Origin: Thermoanaerobaculia bacterium | GTDB taxonomy: Bacteria; Acidobacteriota; Thermoanaerobaculia; UBA5066 | NCBI GenBank assembly: GCA_963719225.1 | Contig: CAVRAY010000001.1 | Span: forward strand, 3,008,001 to 3,072,000 | Reading direction: 5' to 3' | Length of the DNA: 64,000 bases | Part shown: piece by piece, positions 279-63,876 of the stretch | Layout: each line of letters begins with the position of its first letter | Numbering within the stretch: position 1 is the first letter of the stretch | Notes under the pieces: generated by a model | The model's input: the letters and a program-made list of their open reading frames with translations, nothing else | The model's database searches: none | Told to the model about the DNA's origin: nothing | Program-made: the position numbers and the translations under genes

Positions 279-2245
279 GCGACGTGGCGAAGGTCTTCGG
301 CGAGCCTGCGATGCTCCTTCCCGGGCTCCTCCTCGCGGCCCTGGCGGCCGGCGCGCTCGTCTTCTCCGTCCGGCGGCGCGCCGCACGGACCGCGACGCTC
401 GTCTCGCCCGCGCTCGCGGCGAAGGCGGGTCTCGCTCCCGCAGGCGGCTTTCCCGCCGTCGCCGCCGTGCTCACGCTCCTCGTCGTCCTCGGCGTCGGTG
501 CCGCGCTCGCGCGGCCGCGCTGGGGGAAGTCGGCCGAGACCGCGCAGAGGCGGGGAGCCGACGTCGTCTTCGTCCTCGACACGTCCGCCTCCATGCGCGC
601 GGCGGACGTCTCGCCGTCGCGCTTCGTACTCGCGCGGCAGGCCGCGCAGTCTCTCCTGTCCCGCCTCGGCAGCGACCGCGCCGCGTTGATCGCGTGCGAA
701 GGAGAGGCGCAGGCGCTCGTGCCGCTGACTCTCGATGCGGCGGCCGTCGGTCTCTTCCTCGACGCGATGGAGCCCGGCATGGGCGCCAAGCCCGGCACCT
801 CGCTTGCCTCGGGCCTCGCCGCGGCCGCTGAAATGTTCCCCGCCGGGTCGGCGGGCGGCCGGAACGCCGTCGTCTTCTCGGACGGCGAGGATCTCGAAGG
901 CGGCGTCGACGCCGCGATCGCACGCGCGAAAGCCGAAGGCATCACCGTACACGCCGTTTTCGTCGGGGCGCTCGGCGGAACGGGCGCTCCGGTGCCCGAG
1001 GTGGACGCTGCCGGGCGCACGAGCGGCTTCAAGAGCGACGCGAGCGGGCAGCCTGTGCTCTCGAAGGCCGATCCCGACCTCCTTCGCCGCCTCGCGGCCG
1101 AAACCGGAGGCTCGTTCACGGTCGTCTCGTCCGGCCGCACGGACCTCGAAGGTGTCGCCCGACAGATCGATCTCGGCGCGCGCCGCCCGCTCTCCGAGGT
1201 ACTCGTCACGTCTCTCGTAGAGCGCTTCCAGATTCCGCTCGGCGCCGCGGTCGGGGCGCTCGGACTTCTCTTGCTCGGAGTCGGACGGGGGCGAAGCGCT
1301 TCGAGACGAGCAGGGGCATCGGGTTTTCTTCGGAATCTGCTTAGAAGGGGGAAGAGGGGGGCCGCGGAGCTCGGGGTGGCGGCTCTGCTGTTCCTCGCAA
1401 TCGTCCTGGGCGCGCGCGCCGAGGGGCAGCAGCAGGCCCCGGCCGCACCCGCAGCGCAAACGAGCGCTCCGTCGGCGTCCTCGAACGGCGCCGCCGGGCC
1501 CGCTCCTTCCACGGCCTCTTCGAACCCCGCGACTGGCCCGACGCTTCGAGATGCCCAGCCGCTTCCCGACACTCCCTCTCAATTTCCCTTTCTAAGCAAA
1601 ATCTTCTCTTCCCCCCGTTCCGAAGCAAAAAAGGGCCGACAGGCGCTGGACGAGAAGAAGCCCGACGAAGCGATCGTGCATTTCCAGCGCGAGACCGAGA
1701 TGGCGCCGAAGGACCTGACCGGCAGCTACAACCTCGGCACGGCGCAATCGCGCGCGGGCAAGCCCTCCGCGGCGCTCTCGTCGCTCGAGAAGGCGCGGCG
1801 CCAAGGGCGCGGTGCCGTCGCGGCGGACGCGTCTTTCAACACGGGCCAGACTCTGTACCGCGAAAAGCAGTACGAGCCCGCCGCGGCGGCCTTTCGCGAG
1901 GCTTTGAAGCGCCGTCCGGGCGACGCGGACGCGGCCTGGAACTACGAGCTGTGCGTGCGCCGCGCCCAGGAGGAAAAGCAGAAGCAGAAAGAGCAGCAGA
2001 AGGACAAGAAGGATCCCAGGGACGACAAGGAAAAAGCCGGCGGAAAGGACGCGAAGGACAAGCAGCAGGCGGGAAGCGAGGCGCAGAAAAAGCAGCAGCA
2101 GGAGCAGGAGTTCGAGCAGAAGGCGAAGATGACGCGGGACAAGGCCGAGCAGCTTCTGTCCGCCATCGAGCGTTCCGATCTCGACGAGCAGAAGAAGAAG
2201 ATCGCCGAGCAGCGCAGCAAGCGGCGCGTCGCGAGGGACTGGTGA
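275..2245 (+). CDS. VWA + TPR protein (BatB/BatC-like fusion)
   Basis: ATGA overlap with upstream stop; RPRWG, VWA MIDAS-like DTSASM, SDGED, then TPRs (YNLGTA, FNTGQTLY, DAAWNYEL), Q/K-rich tail ending RDW. Confidence 0.85.
   Translation: MSDVAKVFGEPAMLLPGLLLAALAAGALVFSVRRRAARTATLVSPALAAKAGLAPAGGFPAVAAVLTLLVVLGVGAALARPRWGKSAETAQRRGADVVFVLDTSASMRAADVSPSRFVLARQAAQSLLSRLGSDRAALIACEGEAQALVPLTLDAAAVGLFLDAMEPGMGAKPGTSLASGLAAAAEMFPAGSAGGRNAVVFSDGEDLEGGVDAAIARAKAEGITVHAVFVGALGGTGAPVPEVDAAGRTSGFKSDASGQPVLSKADPDLLRRLAAETGGSFTVVSSGRTDLEGVARQIDLGARRPLSEVLVTSLVERFQIPLGAAVGALGLLLLGVGRGRSASRRAGASGFLRNLLRRGKRGAAELGVAALLFLAIVLGARAEGQQQAPAAPAAQTSAPSASSNGAAGPAPSTASSNPATGPTLRDAQPLPDTPSQFPFLSKIFSSPRSEAKKGRQALDEKKPDEAIVHFQRETEMAPKDLTGSYNLGTAQSRAGKPSAALSSLEKARRQGRGAVAADASFNTGQTLYREKQYEPAAAAFREALKRRPGDADAAWNYELCVRRAQEEKQKQKEQQKDKKDPRDDKEKAGGKDAKDKQQAGSEAQKKQQQEQEFEQKAKMTRDKAEQLLSAIERSDLDEQKKKIAEQRSKRRVARDW
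1333..1612. repeat. Dispersed TTCTWAGAA element, inverted pair inside batB/C
   Basis: TGCTTAGAA core 1338-1346 and TTCTAAGCA core 1590-1598. Confidence 0.7.
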
Positions 2246-4050
2246 AGAGAGCTGCCCGTCTCGCCGTGGTCGTTGCCGCGGCCGCGCTCGGCGCGCGCGT
2301 CGCCCGCTCCGCGGACGAGCTTTCCGTGCAGGTTCTCGTGGACAAGGCGCGGCCCGCCGCGGACGACGTCGTGCGGGTGACGTACACGTTCTCGGGATCG
2401 GGTCTCGGCGGCACGCTTCGGCTCCCCGCGAGCCTGCCTCTGAAGAACCTCGTGCTCGCGGGAGGTCCGTCGAAGTCGGATCAGGTTTCTTTCGTGAACG
2501 GCGTCTTCAGCCGCTCGCTTTCGCTGACCTACTTTCTGCGGCCCCAGGGTCCGGGTCCGGCCGAGATCGGCGAAGTTTCGTTCGGATTCGACGAGAAGAC
2601 CGTGAAAGCCTCGAGCTACCTGCTCGAGGTCGGGCCGGCGCGCGGCCGGAGCGGCGCCGCGCCGGAGCCCGAAGACGACGACCCGATTGCGCAGTTCTTC
2701 CGGCGGCGCGACGTTTCCGCGCGTCCCGCCGCCGCGGGCGCCCCCCACGCGCGGCCGTTCCTGGAGTTTCGCGTCACGCCGGACAAGACGACGGCGTACG
2801 TGGGCGAGGAGATCACGCTGCACTACGAGCTGCTCACCCAGGCGGACGTGCAGGGGCTCGAGTACCTCGAGCCGCCGCGCTTCCCCGGCTGCTGGGCCGA
2901 GGACCTCGAGAAGCCGGAGAAGCCCGTGGGTCACCGCGACGTCGTCGACGGCCGCACGGTGATGCGCTTCACGCTGCTCAAAAAGCTCGTGTCGGGCCTG
3001 AACCCCGGCACGGTGAACATCCCCGAGGCGAAGATCCGCACGAGCGTCCGCGGCTCCGCGGATCCCTTCGGCGACCCCTTCGGGTTCTTCCCGCGTTCGC
3101 AGGTCATGGACCTCGTCGCCCGGCCGGTCAGCCTCCGGATCCTTCCGATCCCGGGAGACCCCGCGTTCCATGGACCGGTCGGCCGCTTCGACCTGAGCGC
3201 GAAGCTGGATCGGACGAAGGTCGCTCCCGGCGAAGCCGCCACGCTGCGCATCCGGCTCGCGGGGACCGGCAACCTGCGCACCGCGACCGAGTCGCCCAAG
3301 CTCGAAGTCCCGAACGCCACGCTGTATCCGCCGAGCATGAAGTCCGACTCCTCGCGCGCCGGCCGTACGCAGGTCTCGACGGAATGGAGCTATGTCCTCG
3401 TGCCGAAGGAAAACGGCACCGTCACGATCCCGCCGGTTTCGCTCGCCGTCTTCGACCCCTCCGAGAAGCGCATCGTCACGAAGACGACACAGCCGCTCAC
3501 GCTCGTCGCCGAGGGCGGCGCCGCCCCGGGCGCGGCCGCCGGGCTCACCACCGCCGAAACGACGATGCCTCTCCTGCCGCCTCCCGGACCGTCTCCCGCT
3601 CCGCGAAACGCGAAGTCCGGTCTCGACGCGAGCGTCGACTTCTCCCGGAACACCGTCACGCTCCCGCTCTGGGCCCTGGCCGCGGTGCCGGGGGCGGCTC
3701 TCCTCGGGTTCGGCGCGGTCGTCGCCGTAAGACGGCGCCGGTCCCTCGGCGTCTGGCGCGAGGTCCTCGAGCCGGAGCCGGGAGAGACGAAAGAGCGCGC
3801 GGCCGCGCGCGTCGAGCGTGCGCTCCGCGAGCTTCTCGCGCGCCGGTACCTCGTGCCCGACGGCGCGTCCACGTCCAGCGTCCTCACCGCTCTCGCCCAG
3901 GGCGGCGTTTCCGCCAGGCGGATCGAGGACGTCCGGACGCTGCTCTCCGACGTGGAGTTCCTCCGCACGGCCCCCCAGCTCGGCGACTACGGCACGAAGA
4001 TCGCCACCCTGCGCGCGCACGCCGCCCGCATCCTGCCCCGCCTCGCCTGA
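2242..4050 (+). CDS. batD: BatD family protein
   Basis: GTGA overlap start; signal peptide; repeated Ig-like BatD domains (TAYVGEEI, GPVGRFDL, GTGNL); C-terminal TM segment. Confidence 0.8.
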   Translation: MKRAARLAVVVAAAALGARVARSADELSVQVLVDKARPAADDVVRVTYTFSGSGLGGTLRLPASLPLKNLVLAGGPSKSDQVSFVNGVFSRSLSLTYFLRPQGPGPAEIGEVSFGFDEKTVKASSYLLEVGPARGRSGAAPEPEDDDPIAQFFRRRDVSARPAAAGAPHARPFLEFRVTPDKTTAYVGEEITLHYELLTQADVQGLEYLEPPRFPGCWAEDLEKPEKPVGHRDVVDGRTVMRFTLLKKLVSGLNPGTVNIPEAKIRTSVRGSADPFGDPFGFFPRSQVMDLVARPVSLRILPIPGDPAFHGPVGRFDLSAKLDRTKVAPGEAATLRIRLAGTGNLRTATESPKLEVPNATLYPPSMKSDSSRAGRTQVSTEWSYVLVPKENGTVTIPPVSLAVFDPSEKRIVTKTTQPLTLVAEGGAAPGAAAGLTTAETTMPLLPPPGPSPAPRNAKSGLDASVDFSRNTVTLPLWALAAVPGAALLGFGAVVAVRRRRSLGVWREVLEPEPGETKERAAARVERALRELLARRYLVPDGASTSSVLTALAQGGVSARRIEDVRTLLSDVEFLRTAPQLGDYGTKIATLRAHAARILPRLA

Positions 4051-4099
4051 GGCGCGCTCCGGGGGTTTCCAACGCCGAAGCGTAAAATGGCGTCTCACC

Positions 4100-5257
4100 G
4101 TGAACACAAGAGTCGCCCGGGTCATCCCGGCCAAGCAGCTCATTCGCTACATGGAGCGGCACCGCCTGCTCGATGAGACGAGCGGGACGCCACCCGATCG
4201 TTTCCTCATCACGCTCGTGAACCGCGCGATGGAGTTCGTGCCCGCGCAGGCGGGGGCCCTCCTCCTCGACGATCCCGTGTCGAAAGAGGACGACCGCTCG
4301 CGAAACGAGCTCGCGATCATCGTGACGGCGGGCGACGTGAAGGAGAGCGCCGTCGGCCGCAAGGTGCGTCCCGTGGACGGCATCGCCGGCTTCGTGTACG
4401 CCCGAGGCGAGCGCACGTGCGTGAACGAGGTGGGAGGTGCTCACGCGTTCTCGCGCGAGATCGACGCGCTTCTCCAGATCCCCATCACGAACGTCCTCGC
4501 CGTGCCCGTCGTGATCGAGAACCACGTGTGCGGCTCGCTCATCCTCATCAACCGCCAGGGCGAACCTGCTTTCACGCCCCGCGACGAGCGCCTCATGGAG
4601 CTGTTCGGCGACACGCTTTCCCTCGCGCTCCAGAACCTCCTCGACGAGCGGCGCGCGCGCGAGGTCGCCCGGCGCGACTCGCTGACGTCCCTCTACAACG
4701 ACCGGTACTTCCACCGGAAGCTCCAGCGGGAGATCGACCGGCTCGGGGAGTCGAAGGACGGGGAGCTCGCGCTTCTCTTCCTCGACTGCGACCACCTCAA
4801 GAAAGTGAACGACGAGCACGGCCACCTCGCCGGAAGCCAGGTGCTCCGCGAGGTGTCCTTCATCCTCCAGAGGACGCTCGCCGACACGGTCTCCCTCGCG
4901 TGCCGCTACGGCGGCGACGAGTTCACGGTGATCCTGCTCGACGCGGACCTCAACGCCGCCGTCGCGATCGCCGAGAAAATCCGAAAGGCGATCGACGACT
5001 GGACGTTCCTTCCGATGTCCATCGGCCCCGGGGAGCCGGCCTTGAACCTCAAGAACGTCGTCACGATGTCCGTGGGCGTGGCCACGTATCGCGCCCACGT
5101 GGACACGTCGCTCCCCGTCGCCGAGCAGAAGAACGAGATCCTCAAGAAGGCGGATTCCGCCCTCTACGCCGCAAAGACCAAGGGAAAGAACTGCGTCGTG
5201 GCCGCCGAGGTCGCTTCCGCGCGGGGAGGCGGTTCGACGGTCATCCTGAAGAGCTGA
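4100..5257 (+). CDS. GAF-domain diguanylate cyclase
   Basis: GAF domain followed by DSLTSLYN, KVNDEHGHLAG and an intact RYGGDEF motif; start inferred at GTG 4100. Confidence 0.9.
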   Translation: MNTRVARVIPAKQLIRYMERHRLLDETSGTPPDRFLITLVNRAMEFVPAQAGALLLDDPVSKEDDRSRNELAIIVTAGDVKESAVGRKVRPVDGIAGFVYARGERTCVNEVGGAHAFSREIDALLQIPITNVLAVPVVIENHVCGSLILINRQGEPAFTPRDERLMELFGDTLSLALQNLLDERRAREVARRDSLTSLYNDRYFHRKLQREIDRLGESKDGELALLFLDCDHLKKVNDEHGHLAGSQVLREVSFILQRTLADTVSLACRYGGDEFTVILLDADLNAAVAIAEKIRKAIDDWTFLPMSIGPGEPALNLKNVVTMSVGVATYRAHVDTSLPVAEQKNEILKKADSALYAAKTKGKNCVVAAEVASARGGGSTVILKS

Positions 5258-7551: not shown

Positions 7552-7563
7552 AATCCGGCCGCG

Positions 7564-9899: not shown

Positions 9900-10565
9900 C
9901 TAGTCCTTCCCGAGCGCGGTGAGAGCGGCGGCCATCAGCTCGGGCGCCTCGGGCGCGTCTTCGGGAAGAGGCTCTTTTTTCCGGGGAGGAACGGACACCT
10001 GCGCCAAACGCTTTTCGCCTCCCAGTAGCGTGAGGACCGGGAATTCCTCGGGCGCGAGCCCGTCGTCCTCCAGCCCCTGGCGGATGTACTCGGCCGCAGC
10101 AGGCAGGAGGAAGTAGTCGGTCTCCTCGGCGAGGCGGGAGAGGTTGCACCGCACCGTCTTTCGCGAAACATCCTGGTCGAAATACCGGAACGTGGACGCC
10201 GGCGATGAGGCGGTGATCCGCCCTCCCGGGCCGCCGTGCATGAACCGCAGGGGCGGCCCGAGGTCCAGGCGAATCTCGTCCTGCATGACGTCCCGCCCGT
10301 CGACGCCCCGCACGACCTCGTGCCGGAGGATGAGGTCGCTTCGGACGAGACCGCGCACGAGCCAGGCGCTGCGCCGCGCGTTCTCGGCCTTCACGGACAC
10401 CTTCGCGAGGTCGCAGACGCGGTTCCCTCGGCCGTCCACGACGCGCTCGAGCGTGATTTTCGGAGGCTCTTCGGCATTCAAAATCCGCCCTGCGATCAAA
10501 ATAGAACAAGAGAAGAAAAGTGGATTTCTTAGAAAGGAAGAACGGCGAGAATGCTGGCGGTTCAG
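9900..10565 (-). CDS. Hypothetical exported protein (third gene of orphan trio)
   Basis: ORF with hydrophobic N-terminus ending A-EEP; AAGGAGG 6 nt before a CTG overlapping the upstream stop; start inferred. Confidence 0.55.
   Translation of the reverse strand: MNRQHSRRSSFLRNPLFFSCSILIAGRILNAEEPPKITLERVVDGRGNRVCDLAKVSVKAENARRSAWLVRGLVRSDLILRHEVVRGVDGRDVMQDEIRLDLGPPLRFMHGGPGGRITASSPASTFRYFDQDVSRKTVRCNLSRLAEETDYFLLPAAAEYIRQGLEDDGLAPEEFPVLTLLGGEKRLAQVSVPPRKKEPLPEDAPEAPELMAAALTALGKD
10508..10540 (+). repeat. Dispersed element, single copy
   Basis: AAGAGAAGAAAAGTGGATTTCTTAGAAAGGAAG, core 10526-10534. Confidence 0.75.
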
Positions 10566-18688: not shown

Positions 18689-20356
18689 TCAGCGTGACGC
18701 GGCCCTGAAAGGCCATGGAGTCGGCGGGAGAACCAGTTCGCGTTCGCGGCGGGCGAGGAGCCGCGGCTGCGGGGATCCCGTCCGCGCGATCTCCTCTTCG
18801 AGCGTGCCTCGCTGCTCGAAGTAGACGTCGGCGATGTACGCGCGCTGGAGGAGGAGAGAAGGAGAAGGAGAGAGAGAAGGAGAAAAAAAAGAAATCTGCT
18901 TAGAAAGGAGGAATCCGAGGGCCGCGTAGACCGCCGCGCCACAGAAAAATGCAAGCGCCACGCCCCCCCTTCCGCTCCCGTTCCTGTTCTCTTCCCTCTT
19001 CCCTTCTACGAAAATCTTCTCTTCTCTCTTCCCCACTAAGAAAAAATAAGCAGCGACACACACGATCGCCGGCAGAACGAAGCGCGCCGCGCCGGGCGCG
19101 ACGAGATGCAACGTATTCGGCGCGGTCAATCCCCTTTCGAAGAAGAACGCCGCGAAAGAGCCCCAGGGCAGCGCGAAACCGGGCGGAACGAACGGAAACG
19201 CGAACGTCGTCGCGCAGATGGCGAGCGTCGAGGCTCCGACCAGAGCACTCTCGAGAAGTCCTCCCTTTCCGAACGCGAACGGAAAGACGAGGAAGGGCAG
19301 CGCCGCGACGAGATAACGCGGCCCGACGGAGAAACCTCCGTGCCAGTTCGGGTAGCCCGCGTAGAGAAGGAGAAGCGAGAGGGGGACGAGCCCGAGCGCG
19401 AGACGACCCGCGGAAGACACGTTGCGGCGCGACGAAAGAACCACTCCCGGCCACAAAAGGAGAAACGGCGAGAAGACGAGGAGGCCCTTAGACGGATCCG
19501 CGAGGAGTCGAAGCAGGATTTCCGGGGACGGCAGAGAAATGCCGAAGAGGCCGGCAGACGCGAGCGACCGGAAGCCGGCCGCGCGCTCGTGAGCGGAGGA
19601 CAGCTCGAAGACCCCTCCGAAGCAGGCGAGGTCGTACGCGCCGAGAAGGGCGACAAAAGGGGCGCCTCCCGCGGCGAGGGCGAGAGCGCGCCGGGGAGCG
19701 GGAAGGACAGCGCAGAGGACGAGCACTCCCGCCGGCACCGCCGCGGGGTACTCCGAGATCACGGCAAGTCCAAGGAGCGCGCCGGCGGCGAGATCGCAAC
19801 GGAACGAGAGGCGGGGATCTCCGGGAGAAAAAAGCGCGACCCATGCGCCGAAGAGGCACGCCGCTACGAGGGCGTGGGAAAAAAGGAGCAACCCGTACGT
19901 GAAGAGGGGTGTCGCGAAAAGAAGGGCGAACGCCGTGTCTGCTGCGCGCGTGGGGGCGGCTCCGAAACGCAGGGCAACCGGGTAGAGGACGAGGGCGAGA
20001 AACACCGCGGGCAGCGTGGCGCCGAAAAGCCGCATCGCCCACAACACAGGGCGCATCGAGGAAGGCGAAGGCGCGCCCGCGAACACCCGCGCGAGAAGGT
20101 AGCCCGGCAGCGCCATGAGCGTCGCGCCGGGCGCCTTGTTCGAGTAGACGCGCCCGTCCTTCTCCGAGACGTCCTCGAATGCCGGCCCGAGGAGCGGAAG
20201 CACGGAGGAAATCTCCGGCGTGCCACGCTCGACGAGCGACGCGGCGAGCGCCCAGCGCGTGAATTCGTTCGGCGAGAGAAAGTGCGGGTAAACAGGCACG
20301 GCGAGCACCGCCAGAAGGGCGTAAAGCCCCACGACGGCTCCGAACCTCGACCGCAT
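18689..20356 (-). CDS. Polytopic membrane protein, GT-C-like glycosyltransferase (putative)
   Basis: More than 10 TM segments; SPNE..R, YSNKAPG, WHGG...GPRYL motifs reminiscent of GT-C-fold proteins. Confidence 0.6.
   Translation of the reverse strand: MRSRFGAVVGLYALLAVLAVPVYPHFLSPNEFTRWALAASLVERGTPEISSVLPLLGPAFEDVSEKDGRVYSNKAPGATLMALPGYLLARVFAGAPSPSSMRPVLWAMRLFGATLPAVFLALVLYPVALRFGAAPTRAADTAFALLFATPLFTYGLLLFSHALVAACLFGAWVALFSPGDPRLSFRCDLAAGALLGLAVISEYPAAVPAGVLVLCAVLPAPRRALALAAGGAPFVALLGAYDLACFGGVFELSSAHERAAGFRSLASAGLFGISLPSPEILLRLLADPSKGLLVFSPFLLLWPGVVLSSRRNVSSAGRLALGLVPLSLLLLYAGYPNWHGGFSVGPRYLVAALPFLVFPFAFGKGGLLESALVGASTLAICATTFAFPFVPPGFALPWGSFAAFFFERGLTAPNTLHLVAPGAARFVLPAIVCVAAYFFLVGKREEKIFVEGKREENRNGSGRGGVALAFFCGAAVYAALGFLLSKQISFFSPSLSPSPSLLLQRAYIADVYFEQRGTLEEEIARTGSPQPRLLARRERELVLPPTPWPFRAASR
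18850..19046. repeat. Dispersed element, inverted pair with about 45-nt purine tract and duplicated reverse arm
   Basis: Cores 18897-18905, 19004-19012, 19034-19042. Confidence 0.8.
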
Positions 20357-20395: not shown

Positions 20396-21550
20396 ATGGA
20401 CGTCGCGGATTTCGACTTCGTGCTGCCGCACGGATCGATCGCGCAGCGGCCCGCACCGCGCGGAGCCGCCCGCCTCATGACGCTCGACCGAAAGACGGGA
20501 GCGTTCGCCCACCGCTTCGTCGCGGACCTCCCGTCCCTCCTCGGCCCGGGCGACATCCTCGTCCTTAACGACACGAAAGTCATTCCGGCGCGAATTTTCG
20601 GCACGGACGAGAGAGGGAGAAGGACGGAATTTCTGCTGGTTTCGAAGATCGAACAGGAACCGGGGAGTTCGGATTTTTCTTTGAAAGGGGAAGAAGATGA
20701 AGACGAGCTTTGGCGCTGCCTCGCGAAACCGGGGAGGCGGGTGAAGGCCGGGAGGAGGTTTTTCTTTGAAGGTGGATGGGCGGCCGAGGCGCTCGCGAGT
20801 GGCGCGACGGCGCAGCCCGAGCCCCATCCACCTTCTAAGAAAAGCGCCCTTACCCGTCGCACCGAAGCCGGCCTTTACGCCCTCCGCTTCACGAAGAGCG
20901 GGAGCAAAAAGTCTTCTCTTCTCGATGATCTTGACGTTCTCGGGTCCGCGCCGCTCCCCCCGTACATCCACCGACCACTCGGCGTCGCGGACGCGCGGGA
21001 TGCGATCGACTACCAGACGGTGTTCGGGGACCGGCCCGGCGCGATCGCGGCGCCGACCGCGGGCCTCCATTTCACTCGCGAGCTTCTCGCGGCCGTCGCC
21101 GCGCGGGGCGTCGAGGTCGTGCGCGTGACGCTGCACGTCGGCCTCGGCACGTTCAAGCCCGTGAAAGTTGATTACGTCGAGGAGCACCTCATGGAATTCG
21201 AGCGGGCGGAAGTTCCCGCGGCGACCGCCGAACGCGTCAACCAGGCGAAACGCGAGGGGCGGCGCATCGTCGCCGTCGGAACGACGTCCGTGCGCACGCT
21301 CGAAGCGTCTGCTCGTGCGCACGCGGGCCTCGTCGCAGCCGGCGCGTTCGAGACGGACCTCTTTCTCGTGCCGGGCGCGACGTTTAACGTCGTCGACGCG
21401 CTGCTGACGAACTTCCACCTGCCCCGCTCGACGCTGCTCATGCTCGTCTCGGCCTTCGCCGGGCGCGAGCACGTCCTCGCCGCATACGGCGAAGCCGTCC
21501 GCGAGGGCTATCGTTTCTTCAGCTACGGCGACGCGATGTTCATTTCGTGA
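20396..21550 (+). CDS. queA: S-adenosylmethionine:tRNA ribosyltransferase-isomerase
   Basis: DFDF.LP, NDTKVIPAR, PLPPYI, AAPTAGLHF, LHVGLGTF, GTTSVR, TNFHLP, FFSYGDAM. Confidence 0.97.
   Translation: MDVADFDFVLPHGSIAQRPAPRGAARLMTLDRKTGAFAHRFVADLPSLLGPGDILVLNDTKVIPARIFGTDERGRRTEFLLVSKIEQEPGSSDFSLKGEEDEDELWRCLAKPGRRVKAGRRFFFEGGWAAEALASGATAQPEPHPPSKKSALTRRTEAGLYALRFTKSGSKKSSLLDDLDVLGSAPLPPYIHRPLGVADARDAIDYQTVFGDRPGAIAAPTAGLHFTRELLAAVAARGVEVVRVTLHVGLGTFKPVKVDYVEEHLMEFERAEVPAATAERVNQAKREGRRIVAVGTTSVRTLEASARAHAGLVAAGAFETDLFLVPGATFNVVDALLTNFHLPRSTLLMLVSAFAGREHVLAAYGEAVREGYRFFSYGDAMFIS
20671..20843. repeat. Dispersed element copies inside queA, including a 21-bp inverted repeat
   Basis: Cores 20677, 20762, 20833; 20760-20780 and 20823-20843 are 20/21 complementary. 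Confidence 0.85.
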
Positions 21551-25399: not shown

Positions 25400-26887
25400 G
25401 TGGACATCGAGAACGCCGCCCGCACCAAGGCGATCCTGAGCCGCGACACCCGCTTTTCGGGCCGATTCTTCGTCGGCGTCGTGACGACGCGCGTCTATTG
25501 CCGGCCCGGCTGCCCCGCGCCTCTTCCGAAACCGAAGAACATGCGCTTTTACACGTATGCCGCGGCCGCCGAAGACGCCGGGTTCCGCCCGTGCCGGCGG
25601 TGCCGGCCGGAAACCGCCCCGGGCTCGCCCGTATGGGACGGGACGTCCGCGACCGTTTCGCGCGCATTGAAGAGGATCTTCGACGGCGACGGCCATGAGT
25701 CCGTTGAAGCGCTGTCCGAACGTCTCGGGCTCGGCTCCCGGCACCTCAGGCGCCTTTTTGCGGAGCACGTCGGCGCATCGCCGGCGTCGCTCCAGCGCAC
25801 GCATCGTGTCCATTTCGCACGCCGGCTACTGGACGAGACGTCGCTCCCCGTCTCGGAAGTTGCGTTCGCGGCCGGCTTCGAGAGCGTCCGGCGTTTCAAC
25901 GACGCGATCCGCGCAACGTTCCATCGGGCCCCTCGAGAGCTGCGAAGAGCTTCGAAGGGAAAAGAGCGAGCGCCAGCGACGGGAATGCCGGAGAAGACGC
26001 TGACTCTCAAGCTGCCGGTCCGGCCGCCGTTCGATGCGACCGCCCTTTTCTCCTTTCTCAGAGATCGTGCTCTTCCGGGCATCGAAGCGGTTCGCGGTCA
26101 CGCTTATTCTCGAACGATCGAAAGCCGCGGACGAGCGGGAATCGTGACGGTCTCACACGAAGCCGGACGGGAATTCCTGAGTCTTTCGCTGAATTTCTCG
26201 CCGGGCCCCGATCTCCTCGACTTCGTGCGCCGCACAGGACGTATCTTCGACGTCGACGCGGACCCGCTCGCGATCGGGACCGTGCTGAGCCGCGATCCGC
26301 TCCTCGCGCCGCTCGTCGCGGCCCGGCCGGGACTTCGCGTGCCCGGCGCCTGGGACCCGTTCGAGATCGCCGTCCGCGCGATTCTCGGCCAGCAGGTGTC
26401 CGTGCGCGGTGCGCGGACGCTCGCGGGACGGCTCGTCGCGGCGTTCGGACGGCCGCTCGAGGACGGAAGCGTGGAAGGCCTGACGCACGTCTTCCCGGGG
26501 CCGGCCGCTCTCGCCGTCTCGGACCTCTCCAAGATCGGCGTTCCCCGCGCGCGCGCGAACGCGATCCGGGCGCTCGCTTCCGCCGTTCACACGAAGAAGG
26601 TCGAGCTCGCCGCGACACGCGGCCTCGACGATCTCGAGCAGCGCCTCTGCGCGCTTCCGGGCATCGGGCCGTGGACGGCTCAATACGTGGCGCTCCGCGC
26701 GTTCGGCGAGCCGGACGCGTTCCCTGCGGGGGATCTCGGGCTCCGCCGGGCGCTCGAGACGGCGGGTGTTTCGGCGGATGCCACGGCGCTTCGCGCGCGT
26801 GCGGCGTCCTGGAGCCCGTTCCGCGCGTACGCGACGTTGCATCTCTGGAATTCACTTCCCTCCCGGGAGAAAAGGAGATCGGAATGA
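25400..26887 (+). CDS. alkA: Ada Zn-binding/AraC-HTH + AlkA DNA-3-methyladenine glycosylase fusion
   Basis: YCRPGC and FRPCRRC Zn site, AraC HTH, AILGQQVS, HhH LPGIGPWTA, FPAGD. Confidence 0.92.
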   Translation: MDIENAARTKAILSRDTRFSGRFFVGVVTTRVYCRPGCPAPLPKPKNMRFYTYAAAAEDAGFRPCRRCRPETAPGSPVWDGTSATVSRALKRIFDGDGHESVEALSERLGLGSRHLRRLFAEHVGASPASLQRTHRVHFARRLLDETSLPVSEVAFAAGFESVRRFNDAIRATFHRAPRELRRASKGKERAPATGMPEKTLTLKLPVRPPFDATALFSFLRDRALPGIEAVRGHAYSRTIESRGRAGIVTVSHEAGREFLSLSLNFSPGPDLLDFVRRTGRIFDVDADPLAIGTVLSRDPLLAPLVAARPGLRVPGAWDPFEIAVRAILGQQVSVRGARTLAGRLVAAFGRPLEDGSVEGLTHVFPGPAALAVSDLSKIGVPRARANAIRALASAVHTKKVELAATRGLDDLEQRLCALPGIGPWTAQYVALRAFGEPDAFPAGDLGLRRALETAGVSADATALRARAASWSPFRAYATLHLWNSLPSREKRRSE

Positions 26888-33093: not shown

Positions 33094-33408
33094 GTGAAAC
33101 GCGCGGCCCTGCTGATGCTCGTCGTCGGGGCGCCGCTCGTCCTGCTCTTCTTCCCCGAGCTCCGCCGCCGCATCGCACACAAACTGCGGTTCCTGCTACT
33201 CGTGTGGTCGGGGGCGGTGCTCTTCTTCGGGCTGGCCGGCGCGCCGGGGAGAGAGAAGAAGAGTTTCTTAGAAGGTGAATCGGGCGCGTCCATCGCCTGG
33301 TCTCTCTTGGGAGTGGCCCTGTTCGCCGCGGCGTTCGTCTCGGTCCTGCGTGATTTCCGGCTCTCTTCACCTTCTAGGGAATCTTCCGGCGGCGCGAAGC
33401 GCCGCTGA
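33094..33408 (+). CDS. Small hypothetical membrane protein (about 3 TM segments)
   Basis: Fills intergenic gap; hydrophobic segments; TAACAT 7 nt upstream of GTG. Confidence 0.55.
   Translation: MKRAALLMLVVGAPLVLLFFPELRRRIAHKLRFLLLVWSGAVLFFGLAGAPGREKKSFLEGESGASIAWSLLGVALFAAAFVSVLRDFRLSSPSRESSGGAKRR
33249..33386. repeat. Dispersed element, inverted pair inside the small membrane ORF
   Basis: Cores 33265-33273 (then GGTGAA) and 33372-33380 (preceded by TTCACC). Confidence 0.8.
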
Positions 33409-57894: not shown

Positions 57895-57999
57895 AGAGAA
57901 GAAGATTTTCTTAGAAGGTGAATGCGGGCCGTGGCTCGTGCGCGCGGAGACCACCCGATGAACGGCGCCTTCGACACCATCGAAGAAATCCCTCTCTCC
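57894..57999. repeat. Dispersed element, inverted pair at the permease-permease junction
   Basis: AAGAGAAGAAGATTTTCTTAGAAGGTGAA (core 57908) and CACCATCGAAGAAATCCCTCTCTCC (core 57979). Confidence 0.75.
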
Positions 58000-59277: not shown

Positions 59278-59293
59278 GTCCTAAGATCCGCGA

Positions 59294-60262
59294 ATGGCGG
59301 CGCGCCGGAGAAGCAACGTCCATCCGCTGAACGGGCGTTCTCTGCGAGCCGCCGCGGCGCGGCTCAAGCGCGGGGAGCTCGTCGCGTTCCCGACGGAGAC
59401 CGTCTACGGCCTTGGAGCGAACGCGCTGGACGAGCAGGCGGTCGCGAAGATCTTCGCCAAGAAGGGACGGCCGCGCGACAACCCGATGATCGTGCATGTC
59501 AGCGACAGAAAGATGCTTAGAAAGGTAATTCGGCGACTGCCGCCGCTCGCCGTGCGACTGGCGGCTCGCTTTTGGCCGGGGCCTCTCACCCTCGTCCTTT
59601 CCAAGAAATCTTCAATCTCTTCTCTTGTGACCGCCGGACGGGACACGGTCGCCGTCCGGATGCCGCAAGGCGTCGCGCGCGACCTCGTCCGCCTCGCGGG
59701 CGTCCCGATCGCCGCGCCCAGCGCGAACCTGTCCGGCCGCCCGAGCCCCACGACGGCACGGCACGTCGCCGAGGACTTTCCGGACATCTATGTCCTCGAC
59801 GGCGGACCGACGGAGCACGGCCTCGAATCGACGGTCCTCGCGCTCGAGCCGCGACCTGCCGTGTTGAGGCAAGGCGCGCTGAGTGAAGAATTTCTTAGAA
59901 AGATGATCCCTGGGCTTCGCCGCAGCCACGCCGGCAACCATGGCGCGAGCCCCGGCACGAAGTACACACATTACGCGCCGTCGCGTCCCCTCATTCTCTT
60001 TCTAAGAAAATCTTCTCTTCTCTCTTACTCTCGAAGGCATCCCAACGCGCTCGTCCTCGGCCCTGCGCTTCTCTCTCCTCTCTTTCCGAAGCAAAGATTT
60101 CTTTCCCTCGGCTCTTCATCCGAAGAGATTGCGCGCGGGCTTTTCGCCGCGCTGCGCACGCGCCGCAAGGGGACGGAGCTCCTTGCGCTCGCCATCCCCC
60201 GCCGCGGCGTCGGCCGCGCGGTCATGGACCGTTTGACACGCGCCGCGACGCGCGTGGTGTGA
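59294..60262 (+). CDS. tsaC: L-threonylcarbamoyladenylate synthase (Sua5)
   Basis: PTETVYGL, KGRP.DNP.IVH, FWPGPLT, APSAN.SG, SPG.KY.HYAP. Confidence 0.94.
   Translation: MAARRRSNVHPLNGRSLRAAAARLKRGELVAFPTETVYGLGANALDEQAVAKIFAKKGRPRDNPMIVHVSDRKMLRKVIRRLPPLAVRLAARFWPGPLTLVLSKKSSISSLVTAGRDTVAVRMPQGVARDLVRLAGVPIAAPSANLSGRPSPTTARHVAEDFPDIYVLDGGPTEHGLESTVLALEPRPAVLRQGALSEEFLRKMIPGLRRSHAGNHGASPGTKYTHYAPSRPLILFLRKSSLLSYSRRHPNALVLGPALLSPLFPKQRFLSLGSSSEEIARGLFAALRTRRKGTELLALAIPRRGVGRAVMDRLTRAATRVV
59507..60030. repeat. Dispersed element, two consecutive inverted pairs inside tsaC
   Basis: Cores 59514/59599 and 59892/60000. Confidence 0.8.
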
Positions 60263-60265
60263 CGC

Positions 60266-61477
60266 GTGAATCCCTGGCGCGGCCTCGGAGGCCTCCCGCG
60301 TGCGGTCTGGGTGCTCTCGTTCGCCACGCTCGTGAACCGCTCCGGCACGATGTTCGTGCCGTTCCTCGTCCTCTACCTCACGCGCGCGCGCGGCTACACG
60401 CCGACGGCGGCCGGCGCGATCCTCTCGCTCTTCGGAGCGGGTGCACTTCTCGCGGCGCCGGTCGCCGGCCGGCTCGCGGACCGTTTCGGGCCGATGCGCA
60501 TCATGCCGGGCTCCCTCGCCGTCTCGGGCGCGCTCCTCCTCCTCTTTCCGCTCGCGAGCGGCCCGGTCACGATCGCCATCCTCACGATTCTCCTCGCGTT
60601 CGTCTCCGAGGCCTTTCGGCCCGCCAGCCTGAGCGTCATCGCGCACACGGTGGTCGCGGACCGCCGCAGGTCCGCGTTCGCGCTCCAGCGCCTCGCGACG
60701 AACCTCGGGATGAGCATCGGTCCCGCCGTGGGCGGCTTTCTCGCGGAGATCTCGTGGCCCGCGCTCTTCATCGCCGACGGCGTGACGTCTCTCGCGGCCG
60801 CAGGCGTCCTTCTCGCGTTGTTCCCGAAAGAAGCGGGGGCGCCGGCGGCCTCCACGCCGGAAACGTCCGACGAGCCGCGCCGCGCCGGCCTGAGGGATCC
60901 GGCGTTCGTCCTTTTTCTCGCGGCCCTCGTGCCGGTTGCGATCGTGTTCTTTCAGCACGAGTCGTCGATGGCCCTTTACCTCGTGCGCGATCTCGGCATC
61001 GCGGTCTGGGTCTTCGGGCTCCTCCACACCGTGAACACGCTGCTCATCGTGTTCCTGGAGGTGCCGCTGAACCTCGCGACCGCGCACTGGCCCCACCGGC
61101 GCACGCTCGTCCTCGGATCAGTCCTGGTCGCGGCGGGGTTCGGCGCCCTCGCGTTCGCGCGCACGCTGCCGGCCGTGGTCGCGACGGTCGTGATCTGGAC
61201 GTTCGGGGAGATGATGCTGCTTCCCGGCATGGCGTCCTACGTCGCCGACGTCTCACCCGCGAACAGACGCGGCGCCTACATGGGCCTCTACACGATGGCG
61301 TTCAGCCTCGCCTTCGTCATCGGCCAGCCGCTGGGGACGGCGCTCCTCGACAAGGCCGGCGGCCGCGCGCTGTGGTTCGTCATGCTCGCTCTCGGGCTCC
61401 TCTCGGCGTTCCTCTTCTCGCGCGTCCCGGAGCCGGAACGTCCCGCCGGGGAGGGCGTACGTCTCCCTACGCCCTGA
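60266..61477 (+). CDS. MFS transporter
   Basis: GRLADRFG motif A; about 12 TM segments. Confidence 0.92.
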   Translation: MNPWRGLGGLPRAVWVLSFATLVNRSGTMFVPFLVLYLTRARGYTPTAAGAILSLFGAGALLAAPVAGRLADRFGPMRIMPGSLAVSGALLLLFPLASGPVTIAILTILLAFVSEAFRPASLSVIAHTVVADRRRSAFALQRLATNLGMSIGPAVGGFLAEISWPALFIADGVTSLAAAGVLLALFPKEAGAPAASTPETSDEPRRAGLRDPAFVLFLAALVPVAIVFFQHESSMALYLVRDLGIAVWVFGLLHTVNTLLIVFLEVPLNLATAHWPHRRTLVLGSVLVAAGFGALAFARTLPAVVATVVIWTFGEMMLLPGMASYVADVSPANRRGAYMGLYTMAFSLAFVIGQPLGTALLDKAGGRALWFVMLALGLLSAFLFSRVPEPERPAGEGVRLPTP

Positions 61478-62936
61478 CGAAGTCGATGTAGCCACGCTCG
61501 ACGTCCGTCGAGACGAGCTTGACGCGCACCTTCTCGCCGACCTCGAGGCCTTCGAAGCCGCGCACGATCTTGCCTTCCACCGGCGGCCGGAAGATGCGCG
61601 CCCACGTGCCTTTCTCCGAGGCCCCGGTCACGACCCCGTCGAAGCGCTCGCCGATGCGCGTCTCGAGGAGCAGCGCGCCCGCGGACTTGCGCAGGAGGCG
61701 CTCGACCTTGTTCGCGGCGTCCTCCTGCTCGGTGCAATGGACGGCGAGGGCGTTCAGCTCCGGGACAGAATACGGCGACGGGCGGCGTGCGAGCGCGGCT
61801 TTCAGGAGACGCTGCGTGATGACGTCGGGGTACCGGCGATTCGGTGCGGTGGAGTGCGTGTAGTCGCGCACCGCGAGCCCGAAATGGCCGACCGGCTCCC
61901 TGCCGGGCAGCTCGACGACGTATTCGCCCGCGCCCATGAGCTTCACGATGACGAGGGAGAGGTCCGGGAAGCGCAGCGGATCCGCCTTCCGGCGCGCCAC
62001 GAGGAACTTCTCCAGGGCCTTCGAGTCCGGCTCCTCGGGCAGGGAGAAACCGTACTCCGCGGCGACGGAGACGATCCGCTGCCACCTCTCGGGCGAGCGC
62101 ACGATGCGGCGCAGCGCGGCGAAGCCGGCCTCCTGGAGATAGCGGGCCGTGACGCCGTTCGCCGCGATCATGAAGTCCTCGATGAGCTGCTTCGGCTCGT
62201 TTTGCTCGTCGACCGTCAGATCGCGGATCTCCTCGCCGTCGAATACGGCCCGCGCCTCGATCGTCTGGAGGTCGAGCGCGCCCTGGGCGTAACGGAGGCG
62301 CCGGAGGCGTTGCGAGACGTCTTCCTGCAGGGTGATCTGCGCGTCGATCCCGGGGACCTTCGCCATCGCCTCCGGCATCTCCGCGCGCCCGTCGCGCCAG
62401 GCGTCCACGGAGTTGTAGGCGAGCTTCGCCTTGTTGCGCACGAGGGCGCGCGAGACGTTCGAGTCGCCGAGCGTGCCGTCCGCGTTCACGACGTACTCGA
62501 CGACGACGGCGAGCCGGTCCTCGTCCTGGTTCAGCGAGGTGAGGTTTGTCGAGAGCTTCTCCGGCAGCATCGGAAAGATCCCGCCAGCCGTGTACACCGA
62601 GGTCGTGTTCCGGGCCGCGCGCGCGTCGAGCGGCGTCCCTTTCTTCACGATCGCGTCCACGTCCGCGACGGCGACGAACACTCTCGCCGCGCCGCCTTCC
62701 AGGACCTCGGCGACGGTCAGCTGGTCGAGGTCGCGGCTGTCGTCGTTGTCGATGGACGCCCAGAGCCGGTCGCGCAGGTCGCGAATGCCCGGCTCCTTCT
62801 CGCGGGCGGGCTCCTCGATGCGCTCGAGCTGTTGAACGGCGTCCTTCGGAAAATCCGGGTCGAGCCCCTTCTCGCGCATCGCGCGCCGCGCGATGTCGGC
62901 GAGGTCGGAGCGATGGTGCCGGCCTCTTCTCGTCAT
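61467..62936 (-). CDS. RNB-domain exoribonuclease (RNase II/R family)
   Basis: SIDNDDSRDLDQ, IEDFMIAAN, HFGL...Y.H.TAPNRRYPD, C-terminal S1. Confidence 0.92.
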   Translation of the reverse strand: MTRRGRHHRSDLADIARRAMREKGLDPDFPKDAVQQLERIEEPAREKEPGIRDLRDRLWASIDNDDSRDLDQLTVAEVLEGGAARVFVAVADVDAIVKKGTPLDARAARNTTSVYTAGGIFPMLPEKLSTNLTSLNQDEDRLAVVVEYVVNADGTLGDSNVSRALVRNKAKLAYNSVDAWRDGRAEMPEAMAKVPGIDAQITLQEDVSQRLRRLRYAQGALDLQTIEARAVFDGEEIRDLTVDEQNEPKQLIEDFMIAANGVTARYLQEAGFAALRRIVRSPERWQRIVSVAAEYGFSLPEEPDSKALEKFLVARRKADPLRFPDLSLVIVKLMGAGEYVVELPGREPVGHFGLAVRDYTHSTAPNRRYPDVITQRLLKAALARRPSPYSVPELNALAVHCTEQEDAANKVERLLRKSAGALLLETRIGERFDGVVTGASEKGTWARIFRPPVEGKIVRGFEGLEVGEKVRVKLVSTDVERGYIDFVRA

Positions 62937-62949
62937 GCGGTGAATCTTG

Positions 62950-63876
62950 TCATGGGCGGACGAGGCTGACGGCCGCCGCGACGGCCTTCCTCCCCGCCGG
63001 CGACTTCGGATCGATGATCTCGAAATGCCCGCCTGGGACGCGCACGAGCCGCGCGTCGTCACCTCCGGCTTTCGCGCGGCCCACATAGGCGTAGCTGAGG
63101 TCGAACGGCACGATGTCGTCGCGCTCCCCGTGGACGAGGATCTGCGGGACGCCGAGCGGAAGGAGCTCGGCCGGCGAAGAGGAGAGATAGCGACCGGCCA
63201 TGTCGCCCGGCGAGCCGCCCATGAGCGCGCCCACCGCTCCGCTCCCCACGCCGTCGCGGTAGGCGCGCGCGAGATCCGGGACGCCCGCGAGGGAGACGGC
63301 GCCTCCCACGCGAAGCGGATCAACCTCGAAGAGCGGATCCGTCTTCCAGATTCGCGGGCGCGCGGCGAGCCAGAGTGCGAGGTGGCCGCCCGCCGAATGT
63401 CCGATCGTGACGACGCGCCCGAGATCGAGCGGATGCGTCTTCGAGAGCGCACGCAGGTGATTCGTCGCCCGGGACGCGTCGCGGAACGTGCCCGGCCAGC
63501 CGCCGCCGTCTTCGCCGACGCGCCGGTACTCGATGTTCCACGTGGCGACCCCGGCCGCCGTGATCGCCGACGAGAGCCTGTCCATGAGATCGAGGCCGTA
63601 AGCGGCCTTCCAGAAGCCGCCGTGCACCACGACCGCGACGGGATGCGGCCCCGCGCCGCGGGGAAGGCGCAGCTCCCCGAACTGCGACTTTCCGGTTCCG
63701 TAGGAGATTCTGATTAGGGAAGAAGAAGAGGAAGAGGAAGAGGAGAAAAGAGAGGAAGAGAAGATTTCTTTGAAGGGAAGAGGGGCTCGGGCAAGCGCCC
63801 GGTTCGCGAGCGCCGCCGAAGCCGCGGCTCCGGCGCTCATGATCATTCTAAGAAAAACCCTCTTCGAACAATCCAT
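62950..63876 (-). CDS. Alpha/beta hydrolase with Tat-like signal and poly-Ser linker
   Basis: HGGFW, NIEYRR, GHSAGG, HGERDDIVP, GHF; N-terminus MDCSKRVFLR; start inferred. Confidence 0.85.
   Translation of the reverse strand: MDCSKRVFLRMIMSAGAAASAALANRALARAPLPFKEIFSSSLFSSSSSSSSSLIRISYGTGKSQFGELRLPRGAGPHPVAVVVHGGFWKAAYGLDLMDRLSSAITAAGVATWNIEYRRVGEDGGGWPGTFRDASRATNHLRALSKTHPLDLGRVVTIGHSAGGHLALWLAARPRIWKTDPLFEVDPLRVGGAVSLAGVPDLARAYRDGVGSGAVGALMGGSPGDMAGRYLSSSPAELLPLGVPQILVHGERDDIVPFDLSYAYVGRAKAGGDDARLVRVPGGHFEIIDPKSPAGRKAVAAAVSLVRP

What the first reader, a model, noticed from the sequence alone, without database searches (positions are those of the whole stretch)
1338..63854. The element is arranged as inward-facing inverted pairs about 70-120 bp apart that bracket unrelated DNA
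Seen: a forward copy (GA tract outside) is followed by a reverse copy (TC tract outside). Core-to-core distances are 252 (1338/1590), 117 (6731/6848), 107 (18897/19004), 71 (20762/20833), 107 (33265/33372), 81 (38298/38379), 153 (48022/48175), 89 (53559/53648), 71 (57908/57979), 85 (59514/59599), 108 (59892/60000) and 80 (63766/63846). A weak degenerate pair in alkA (25948/26055) is also 107 apart. I saw no comparably close pair in the opposite, outward-facing order. Partners often share private variants: both arms read GCTTAGAA in batB, GGTGGATGGG in queA and GGTGAA at 33265/33372. The enclosed DNA is ordinary gene sequence, not a conserved element body. Inference: this is either a two-site protein-DNA architecture that wraps or loops about 70-110 bp, or a long-range hairpin/cruciform whose arms co-evolve or are homogenised by template switching. 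It is the best candidate in this window for an undescribed system.
Basis: partly seen in the sequence, partly recalled or inferred. Interest (0 to 1): 0.88.

Follow-up and report, generated by a model that had tools for sequence, protein, structure and literature searches.

The report
Paired DNA signals rewriting bacterial genes
One genus of Acidobacteria carries about 900 copies of a short DNA signal per genome, two-thirds of them facing each other in pairs roughly 70-250 bases apart, even inside core genes whose proteins are altered to hold them; a protein likely reads the pairs, perhaps to pick out the species' own DNA for uptake.

Summary
All 13 pairs are present. Genome-wide there are 957 sites; among neighbours within 300 bp, 305 face inward and 15 outward (strand shuffle 104±8). 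Spacing starts at ~65-70 bp, peaks at 75-79 bp and shows no 10.5-bp phasing. Same-direction sites outside a pair also sit ~80 bp apart.

The hairpin reading fails: partner arms are no more alike than random arms (z=0.4) and the enclosed DNA has no excess structure. Sites arise by substitution at fixed codons of core genes; 26 of 52 intragenic pairs coincide with insertions, against 7% of controls. Paired sites persist in orthologues (274 of 289).

The motif is in 24 of 24 genomes of the genus, weaker in a sister genus and at background elsewhere. Density falls 3-4-fold from dif towards the origin, with no strand skew.

Best reading: a two-site, protein-read signal spread like DNA uptake sequences (0.40). 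Main rival: a terminus-domain chromosome organiser (0.30). The reader protein was not identified.

The parts
1338..1598 (.). Inward pair, 252 bp centre to centre, in the Ala/Pro/Ser linker of a VWA-TPR (batB-like) gene
   Evidence: 25/29 bits
6731..6856 (.). Inward pair, 117 bp, at the 5' end of a transglycosylase gene
   Evidence: 24/33 bits
10526..10534 (+). Unpaired site
   Evidence: 31 bits
11394..11402 (+). Unpaired site in a CDS
   Evidence: 28 bits
18897..19144 (.). Nested cluster + - - - (pair 107 bp; extra - sites centred at 19038, weak, and 19140)
20677..20841 (.). Nested cluster + + - in queA (85 bp, then 71 bp); the inner + site arose by substitution, the - site lies in a loop insertion absent from outgroups
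25948..26063 (.). Weak inward pair, 107 bp, 5' of the called alkA ORF
   Evidence: 12/17 bits
27034..27042 (+). Unpaired site in an O6-methylguanine methyltransferase-family gene
   Evidence: 32 bits
33265..33380 (.). Inward pair, 107 bp
   Evidence: 31/25 bits
38298..38387 (.). Inward pair, 81 bp, in a CpeT/CpcT-family gene
   Evidence: 34/22 bits
48022..48183 (.). Inward pair, 153 bp, in the mutL linker
   Evidence: 12/28 bits
53559..53753 (.). Nested cluster + - - (89 bp, then 97 bp) at the 5' end of an aldehyde-dehydrogenase-family (proA-like) gene
57908..57987 (.). Inward pair, 71 bp, between two MacB/FtsX genes
   Evidence: 36/18 bits
59514..59607 (.). Inward pair, 85 bp, in tsaC/sua5; made by substitution only, enclosed protein segment homologous to motif-less outgroups
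59892..60008 (.). Inward pair, 108 bp, in tsaC/sua5; 132-189 bp in orthologues through insertions, with a new + site 80-83 bp from the - site in 3 genomes
63766..63937 (.). Nested cluster + - - (80 bp, then 83 bp), intergenic
   Evidence: 31/26/35 bits

Best explanation
The motif is a conserved, directional ~25-bp signal that occurs in inward-facing pairs at least ~65-70 bp apart; it is likely bound as double-stranded DNA by two copies of a flexible or sliding protein complex, and likely acts as a self-DNA tag for uptake and recombination, so that alleles carrying a pair would spread by DUS-like drive. SHOWN: consensus purine tract-WTTTCTT(A/C)GAA(G/A)G-purine tail; paired and nested (+ + - -) geometry with a ~75-90 bp pitch; gain by point substitution in all six frames and by in-frame insertions that supply a partner; retention across the genus; none in three mobile-looking blocks; a 3-4-fold gradient from dif to the origin. 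INFERRED: protein binding (arms match a consensus, not each other); a footprint of ~35 bp on the inner side of each site (from the spacing floor); no rigid loop (no phasing); the role in competence. A local advantage per locus is inferred because ~900 long sites are kept at the cost of changed residues and insertions of up to 39 aa in core enzymes, which a small diffuse benefit per site would not easily pay for. The gradient would need a higher per-copy conversion rate at late-replicating loci (untested). Candidate readers, none shown: a secreted two-domain ComEA with a long linker, or the FimT/GspH-like pilin beside comEA.
For: DUS/USS-like hallmarks: lineage-restricted consensus (24 of 24 genus genomes; 116-375 exact matches in 17 genus genomes vs 0-2 in 9 genomes of other genera of the family, with 71 and 9 in the two sister-genus genomes). 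680 of 957 sites are in called CDS, in all frames, 349 sense and 331 antisense. Core bases are 0.84-0.96 identical across orthologues inside flanks of 0.65-0.73, as described for DUS in permissive core regions (PMC2397512, passages). Density falls with protein conservation (48.8 to 4.6 per 100 kb). No replichore skew (482 of 957). Zero sites in three blocks of 50-120 kb chosen by eye for low density. Clusters are clumped, not evenly spaced (CV 1.24 vs 0.95±0.05). The upstream tract differs in sister genome G174 (by eye). ComEC is found in 33 of 34 genomes. Tandem ComEA is in 17 of 20 genus and 2 of 2 sister-genus genomes and 0 of 5 g13 genomes, with a long genus-specific branch on domain 1 (0.67 substitutions/site on a 64-aa domain). 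An 81-bp pair lies upstream of comEA in 3 of 6 genus genomes examined.
Against: Known DUS work singly, and their inverted pairs lie within ~21 nt in terminators (PMC2397512; bioRxiv 2025.10.24.684340, passages). Uptake drive does not by itself predict a terminus gradient, and the gradient persists among orthologues and within identity classes (28.2 vs 9.0 per 100 kb). No ComP-family hit among 8 pilin-like proteins of G000. ComEC, comEA and the FimT-like pilin also occur in motif-less genera. Tandem HhH proteins occur in motif-less G275 and in 5 of 7 f2/f3 genomes. ComEA domains are known as non-specific binders (recalled). The comEC coding sequence carries no site in G000, and 3 of 6 genus genomes lack the pair upstream of comEA. 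No uptake, binding or recombination was measured.
Confidence: 0.4

Rival explanations
1. Terminus-domain chromosome organiser: a cytoplasmic nucleoid protein, clamp or condensin-unloading factor binds the sites and forms ~80-bp-pitched particles or bridges the two arms of a DNA U-turn (plectoneme tip), compacting or anchoring the late-replicating half of the chromosome.
For: Density declines from 77-98 per 250 kb at dif to 18-26 near the origin on both arms. It is independent of gene conservation, and a similar trend appears in G174 (contig order inferred) and G314 (partial list). Two pairs flank dif. The ~80-bp pitch occurs in both ++ and +- neighbours. The spacing floor is near the 73-bp plectoneme tip estimate (PMC6301789, passages). 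The core TTTC-N3-GAA resembles parS/NBS TTTC-N4-GAAA (PMC7383237, passages), and a second parAB lies beside dif.
Against: No helical phasing. No excess intrinsic bend across pairs (17.8 vs 18.6 degrees; recalled wedge parameters). Clumped rather than regular spacing. No DUF1931 histone in 5 of 5 genomes. HU/IHF and SMC counts do not differ from motif-less genera. The ParB2 recognition helix is the same in motif-less genera. Known long organiser sites number in tens (recalled), and insertions in core enzymes are a high price for a small benefit per site. In G019 sites stay dense up to the origin on one side, which fits gene history as well as position.
Confidence: 0.3
2. Domesticated ends of a REPIN/Y1-transposase element: the motif descends from the inward-facing subterminal segment of GGGGACA/GGGGTCAG-type elements, and a transposase-derived host protein now keeps the pairs.
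For: The only exact pair among 397 non-genus genomes of the phylum lies in a perfect 56-bp-arm palindrome of a Y1-transposase-associated repeat family; both arms score 23 bits, and it sits upstream of comEA. Y1-element ends in this family read GGGGTCAG...ATTTTCT... pointing inward. In 4 of 52 intragenic pairs both arms lie in an insertion.
Against: In 39 of 52 pairs neither arm is in an insertion, and tsaC pair 1 encloses ancestral protein sequence. No young family with a shared interior. No arm complementarity. No GGGACA repeats near sites. Y1_Tnp is absent from G000 and from 17 of 20 genus genomes. Most arms of the outside family score under 14 bits, so the match may be chance.
Confidence: 0.08
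3. Chi-like or KOPS-like polar signal: a translocating helicase-nuclease or translocase is stopped or loaded at each site, so inward pairs protect or delimit the enclosed segment.
For: Directional sites, nested order, a spacing floor without phasing; AddAB-like genes are present.
Against: No leading-strand skew in all, unpaired or strong sites. The motif is far longer than Chi or KOPS (recalled). AddAB-like genes are also in motif-less genera.
Confidence: 0.07
4. Long-range hairpin or cruciform whose arms co-evolve or are homogenised by template switching.
For: Arms are ~60% complementary because both match the consensus; DNA duplex energy is slightly lower than for permuted partners (z about 1.8); a few tsaC insertions are palindromic.
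Against: No positional co-variation; no RNA duplex gain; no folding excess in 231 enclosed segments vs 462 matched controls; the spacing floor of ~65 bp is far above what a hairpin needs; no Rfam match in the window.
Confidence: 0.03

Closest known systems
Neisseriaceae DUS / Pasteurellaceae USS
   Same: Lineage-specific motif in high copy, about half or more in CDS, conserved within permissive parts of core genes, dialects between lineages, no strand bias (PMC2397512, PMC3630211, bioRxiv 2025.10.24.684340; passages).
   Different: DUS act singly, with pairs within ~21 nt in terminators. Here two-thirds are in pairs at 65 bp or more, nested at ~80 bp, tied to protein insertions and graded towards dif. 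No ComP-family hit.
REPINs / REP doublets with RAYT
   Same: Inverted doublets at characteristic distances (71 and 110 bp in P. fluorescens); doublets better conserved than singlets (PMC3116915, PMC3733652; passages).
   Different: REPINs are extragenic hairpins that move as units. Here 71% of sites are in CDS, arise in place, do not co-vary, enclose unrelated and often ancestral sequence, and most genomes of the genus lack a Y1 transposase.
matS/MatP, NBS/Noc, parS/ParB
   Same: Position-biased protein-binding sites, often intragenic; the core resembles parS/NBS with one base less in the spacer (PMC7383237, passages; matS recalled).
   Different: Those are symmetric palindromes in tens of copies without paired spacing. 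This motif is asymmetric, has ~900 copies and shows a gradient. The dif-linked ParB paralogue has the same recognition helix in motif-less genera.
Chi and KOPS (recalled)
   Same: Directional motifs in hundreds of copies inside genes.
   Different: They are 5-8 bp and skewed by replichore; this motif is ~25 bp, unskewed and paired.
Rickettsia palindromic elements and intragenic REP dimers (PMC3733652, passages)
   Same: In-frame peptide insertions of 20-40 aa in housekeeping proteins.
   Different: Those are inserted conserved palindromes; here insertions differ even between orthologues and half the pairs need none.

Membership tests
DNA uptake sequences (DUS/USS) | Strong lineage-specific over-representation of one motif | tested here: met
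DNA uptake sequences (DUS/USS) | Conserved motif in permissive sites of core genes, several reading frames | tested here: met
DNA uptake sequences (DUS/USS) | Inverted pairs closely spaced in terminators | tested here: not met
   19 of 305 pairs under 65 bp; no excess between convergent genes (65 vs 69 per 100 kb for tandem)
DNA uptake sequences (DUS/USS) | Competence machinery present | tested here: met
   ComEC, ComEA and pilins, but also in motif-less genera
DNA uptake sequences (DUS/USS) | Sequence-specific receptor (ComP-type pilin) | tested here: inconclusive
   No ComP hit among 8 pilin-like proteins found by an N-terminal pattern; no genome-wide ComP search was run
DNA uptake sequences (DUS/USS) | Motif raises DNA uptake or transformation | not testable with these tools
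   needs a cultured strain or purified receptor
REPIN/RAYT | Extragenic location | tested here: not met
   680 of 957 sites in called CDS
REPIN/RAYT | Arms and spacer form a hairpin; spacer shared within a family | tested here: not met
REPIN/RAYT | Associated Y1 transposase flanked by the repeat | tested here: not met
   0 in G000, 3 of 20 genus genomes; those loci have other ends
matS/NBS/parS-type organiser sites | Confined to or excluded from a chromosomal domain | tested here: inconclusive
   Gradient of 30 vs 13 per 100 kb, not confinement
matS/NBS/parS-type organiser sites | Symmetric palindrome acting singly | tested here: not met
   Asymmetric flanks, paired geometry
matS/NBS/parS-type organiser sites | Cognate protein co-distributed with the site | tested here: inconclusive
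   ParB2, HU/IHF, SMC and DUF1931 do not track the motif; no whole-proteome comparison was run
Chi/KOPS | Replichore strand skew | tested here: not met
   482 of 957 on the leading strand
GTA/phage pac sites | Conserved packaging module in the host lineage | tested here: not met
   HK97-type capsid family in 1 of 30 genomes; other capsid folds not searched
Invertons / DNA inversion sites | Enclosed segment found in both orientations | tested here: inconclusive
   No read data were obtained; all tsaC and queA orthologues aligned keep the coding orientation

The most novel reading that the evidence does not exclude
A genome-wide two-site DNA grammar of a kind not described in bacteria: directional sites seat a protein particle with a ~80-bp pitch in convergent arrays over the terminus half of the chromosome, and the advantage of completing a pair is strong enough to rewrite codons and add peptide loops to hundreds of core proteins, so that DNA-level architecture drives protein evolution across a whole genus.
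Probability: 0.25. Interest if true: 0.95.

Novelty: new variant of a known kind. Interest (0 to 1): 0.85.

Why it matters
If it is an uptake tag, it would be a self-recognition system for transformation outside the two proteobacterial families where such tags are established, and the first read as a spaced pair; it would also supply a tag for delivering DNA into these bacteria. If it is a chromosome organiser, it is a paired, phased site architecture with no described counterpart. Either way it is a measurable case of a DNA signal changing proteins: recurrent peptides (FLEG, SPSKKSS, FLRK) and 10-39 aa loops in tRNA synthetases, QueA, TsaC and others. Sister genomes with 9, 71 and 116-375 exact copies give an evolutionary series in which drive against selection, a long-standing question for DUS/USS, can be tested.

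Tried and rejected
Arm co-evolution, hairpins and cruciforms: rejected. 10.5-bp phasing: none; a period of 8 bp gave p=0.024 as 1 of 13 periods tested and was not pursued. The 93-bp spike is 15 kinase paralogues and was collapsed before the arm and phasing tests. Intrinsic curvature across pairs: none, using recalled parameters. Promoter, start or stop association: only small spikes where the motif supplies TAG or precedes ATG.

Reader candidates that did not track the motif: DUF1931 histone, HU/IHF, AddAB-like, SMC, dif-linked ParB2, Y1 transposase, HK97 capsid. The top-scoring site lies in the tandem ComEA linker, but a poly-Ser run explains that score. The 4-site cluster near comEC lies in the neighbouring gene, so it was not counted as evidence. 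A de novo search for another paired motif in 300 kb of G082 found none.

Viral contigs: 0 exact pairs; uninformative, since phages of this genus may be missing from the collection. Four non-Acidobacteria hits among the 80 listed loci are AT-rich (GC 0.40-0.46) and were treated as chance and left out of the pooled counts, together with four overlapping loci. No RNA holder was listed and all 15 runs held at most 0.14 of the words; no read-level test of inversion or deletion was obtained. The Atlas look-up gave no result. Rfam: 0 matches. Earlier scan findings: none. Literature searches found no description of this motif; subscription journals and supplements were not seen.
Full report
1. Observation. 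All 13 pairs are in the window as described. The window has 34 sites over 12 bits, including extra same-direction sites outside four pairs. A weight matrix trained on the genome gives purine tract-(A/T)TTTCTT(A/C)GAA(G/A)G(G/T)GAA-purine tail and 957 sites over 14 bits, against 64 in a Markov simulation and 255 in the reversed genome. Among 416 adjacent sites within 300 bp, 305 face inward, 96 share a direction and 15 face outward. Strand shuffles give 104±8 inward, and random placement gives 59±7 close neighbours in total, so outward pairs are at chance level. Spacing rises at 65-70 bp, peaks at 75-79 bp and tails to ~300 bp. Excluding the pairs selected by the search, 1.22 Mb from relatives shows 105 inward against 14 outward.

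2. What it is not. Partner arms are no more alike than permuted partners over 275 non-redundant pairs (0.594 vs 0.592). Their duplex energies do not differ meaningfully, and 231 enclosed segments fold no better than 462 matched controls. There is no helical phasing and no leading-strand or sense bias. The enclosed sequences are unrelated except among paralogues. None of 186 genus-like pairs from genome and metagenome scans has near-perfect arms (238 loci examined, 52 classed as other). Rfam gives no match.

3. Anatomy. Clusters are nested: 223 +-, 35 ++-, 30 +--, 4 ++--, against 7 -+. Same-direction neighbours peak at 70-100 bp, with a minor group at 20-45 bp. The inside is GpC-rich relative to GC-matched controls (0.145 vs 0.127 coding, 0.156 vs 0.136 non-coding), Ala-rich and weakly codon-biased. 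The outside stays purine/AT-rich to about -100. Gene calls come from my own simple hexamer gene finder and are approximate: 680 of 957 sites fall in CDS, in all six frames, and 277 fall in the 10% that is intergenic.

4. How sites arise. In tsaC the 85-bp pair is made by substitution in conserved sequence (LPKRRS to LSKKSS), with no indel against five motif-less g13 orthologues. The second pair spans 108 bp here and 132-189 bp in relatives through unrelated Ala/Gly/Arg insertions; in G003, G016 and G017 a new + site stands inside the insertion, 80-83 bp from the - site. In queA the inner + site arose by substitution. The - partner lies in a loop insertion that sets 71-98 bp; genomes without that insertion (G016, G020, G024, G082) lack the partner. 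Against sister genome G082 (1.54 of 4.2 Mb fetched; 824 orthologues), 26 of 52 intragenic pairs coincide with an insertion of 3 aa or more (up to 39), against 7% of 520 control windows. In 39 of 52 neither arm is itself inserted, in 9 one is and in 4 both are. Across genus relatives, paired sites are kept in 274 of 289 alignments and unpaired ones in 65 of 91, with core bases far more conserved than flanks. Alignable loci are a biased subset, and kin are not independent.

5. Distribution. The motif is in 24 of 24 genomes of the genus, with one match in 16 genomes of other families of the order. Exact 12-mers number 116-375 in 17 genus genomes, 71 and 9 in the two genomes of sister genus g11, 0-2 in nine genomes of other genera of the family, and at most 17 elsewhere in the class. 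In a phylum sample, 4 of 4 genus genomes and 1 of 397 others match.

6. Chromosome position. dnaA and a single parS lie on C2. The GC-skew maximum is at C1:2.10 Mb, and a dif-like site, found with a recalled motif, is at C1:2.0376 Mb between two pairs. Density falls from 77-98 per 250 kb at dif to 18-26 towards the origin on both arms: 30 per 100 kb within 1 Mb of dif, 13 beyond. It holds among orthologues (28.2 vs 9.0) and in three of four identity classes; the top class has almost no sites. G174 shows the same trend if its contigs are ordered as inferred. G019 is dense up to the origin on one side, probably after a rearrangement. G000 has 6.2% contamination and two contigs, so the outer bins are less certain.

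7. Not found. No DUF1931 histone was detected in 5 of 5 genomes. HU/IHF, AddAB-like genes, SMC and ComEC are shared with motif-less genera. A second parAB beside dif looked promising, but ParB2 is in 24 of 24 genomes and its recognition helix is unchanged. A capsid family occurs in 1 of 30 genomes and Y1 transposases in 3 of 20 genus genomes. A secreted two-domain ComEA is in 17 of 20 genus and 2 of 2 sister genomes and in none of 5 g13 genomes, but relatives of it occur in motif-less G275 and in f2/f3; its first domain has a long genus-specific branch (short alignment). A pair lies upstream of the comEA-pilin operon in 3 of 6 genus genomes. The one outside match (G465) also lies upstream of comEA, inside a perfect REPIN-like palindrome of a family with about 75 arms in that genome. 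That may be chance or a trace of common origin.

8. Mechanism. A consensus matched independently by both arms, a spacing floor, a repeated ~80-bp pitch and no phasing together point to two protein complexes facing each other on duplex DNA through a flexible or sliding link (inference). The number of long sites, their gain wherever a protein tolerates change, their cost to core enzymes, their clumping and their lack of strand bias match the drive described for DUS/USS (PMC2397512, PMC3630211, bioRxiv 10.1101/2025.10.24.684340; passages read). I put this at 0.40. The terminus gradient and the pairs around dif favour a chromosome organiser (0.30; PMC6301789 and PMC7383237, passages). Domesticated REPIN/Y1 ends (0.08; PMC3116915 and PMC3733652, passages), a Chi/KOPS-like stop (0.07) and hairpins (0.03) fit less well; about 0.12 is left for something not considered.

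9. Novelty. It fails a defining test for REPINs, Chi/KOPS and single-palindrome organiser sites. It meets several DUS features but not the terminator-pair geometry, and uptake is untested, so it is not filed as a DUS. Searches of the held library (listings only) found no description of the motif; subscription papers and supplements were not seen. Earlier scan notes returned nothing. No read-level data were obtained, so inversion or excision between partners remains open.

Noticed in passing
L325:7868-9524 (G000 C1:2037868-2039524): A second parAB operon lies directly beside the dif-like site; ParB2 is present in all 24 genomes of the order tested, with a conserved N-terminal extension and a recognition helix unlike ParB1's. 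A terminus-located partition-like system of unknown role.
   Followed up: partly
L200:8000-8425 and orthologous loci L201-L204, L220-L233: The comEA-pilin promoter region carries one or two GACAG-N6/7-CTGTC-like inverted boxes about 75-80 bp apart in most genomes of the order, by eye; a candidate competence-regulator site.
   Followed up: partly
L352:3190-3327; L479-L508; L523-L537: Genus g208 (family f22) has a REPIN-like family with GGGACATTCTGCTTTT ends, perfect arms of variable sequence (36-136 bp) and flanking Y1 transposases; one copy upstream of comEA contains the motif in both arms.
   Followed up: yes
L509-L519, L528-L541: Y1 (PF01797) transposase genes of ~320 aa bounded by inward GGGGTCAG terminal repeats occur in most motif-poor genera but in only 3 of 21 genomes of the motif-rich genus.
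   Followed up: partly
G000 C1:2295000-2320000: Tandem array of about 9 Ser/Thr kinase paralogues, each keeping a 93-bp pair in the kinase N-lobe plus a downstream poly-Ser insertion.
   Followed up: partly
L198, L199, L205-L210: A Tex-like protein (name recalled; ~780 aa, HHH_3 hit) is present in g12-g15 genomes but was not seen in any g1 or g11 genome searched.
   Followed up: no
G000 C1:3645716-3664290 and C1:1426451: Repeated dif-like (pdif/Xer-type) sites in a motif-free block, suggesting Xer-mobilised modules.
   Followed up: no
G019 C2:106761 and C2:838423-847673: The terminus-linked parB2 and the dnaA/parB1 region lie only ~0.74 Mb apart, implying a large inversion or a misassembly.
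   Followed up: no
G000 C1:1112636, 2199112-2209610: Several copies of an IS110-like element (family name recalled from the N-terminal sequence) with identical ends.
   Followed up: no
L093, L094 (around position 10000 or the match): Exact pairs inside lower-GC (59%) loci, showing that some GC-poor regions do carry pairs.
   Followed up: no
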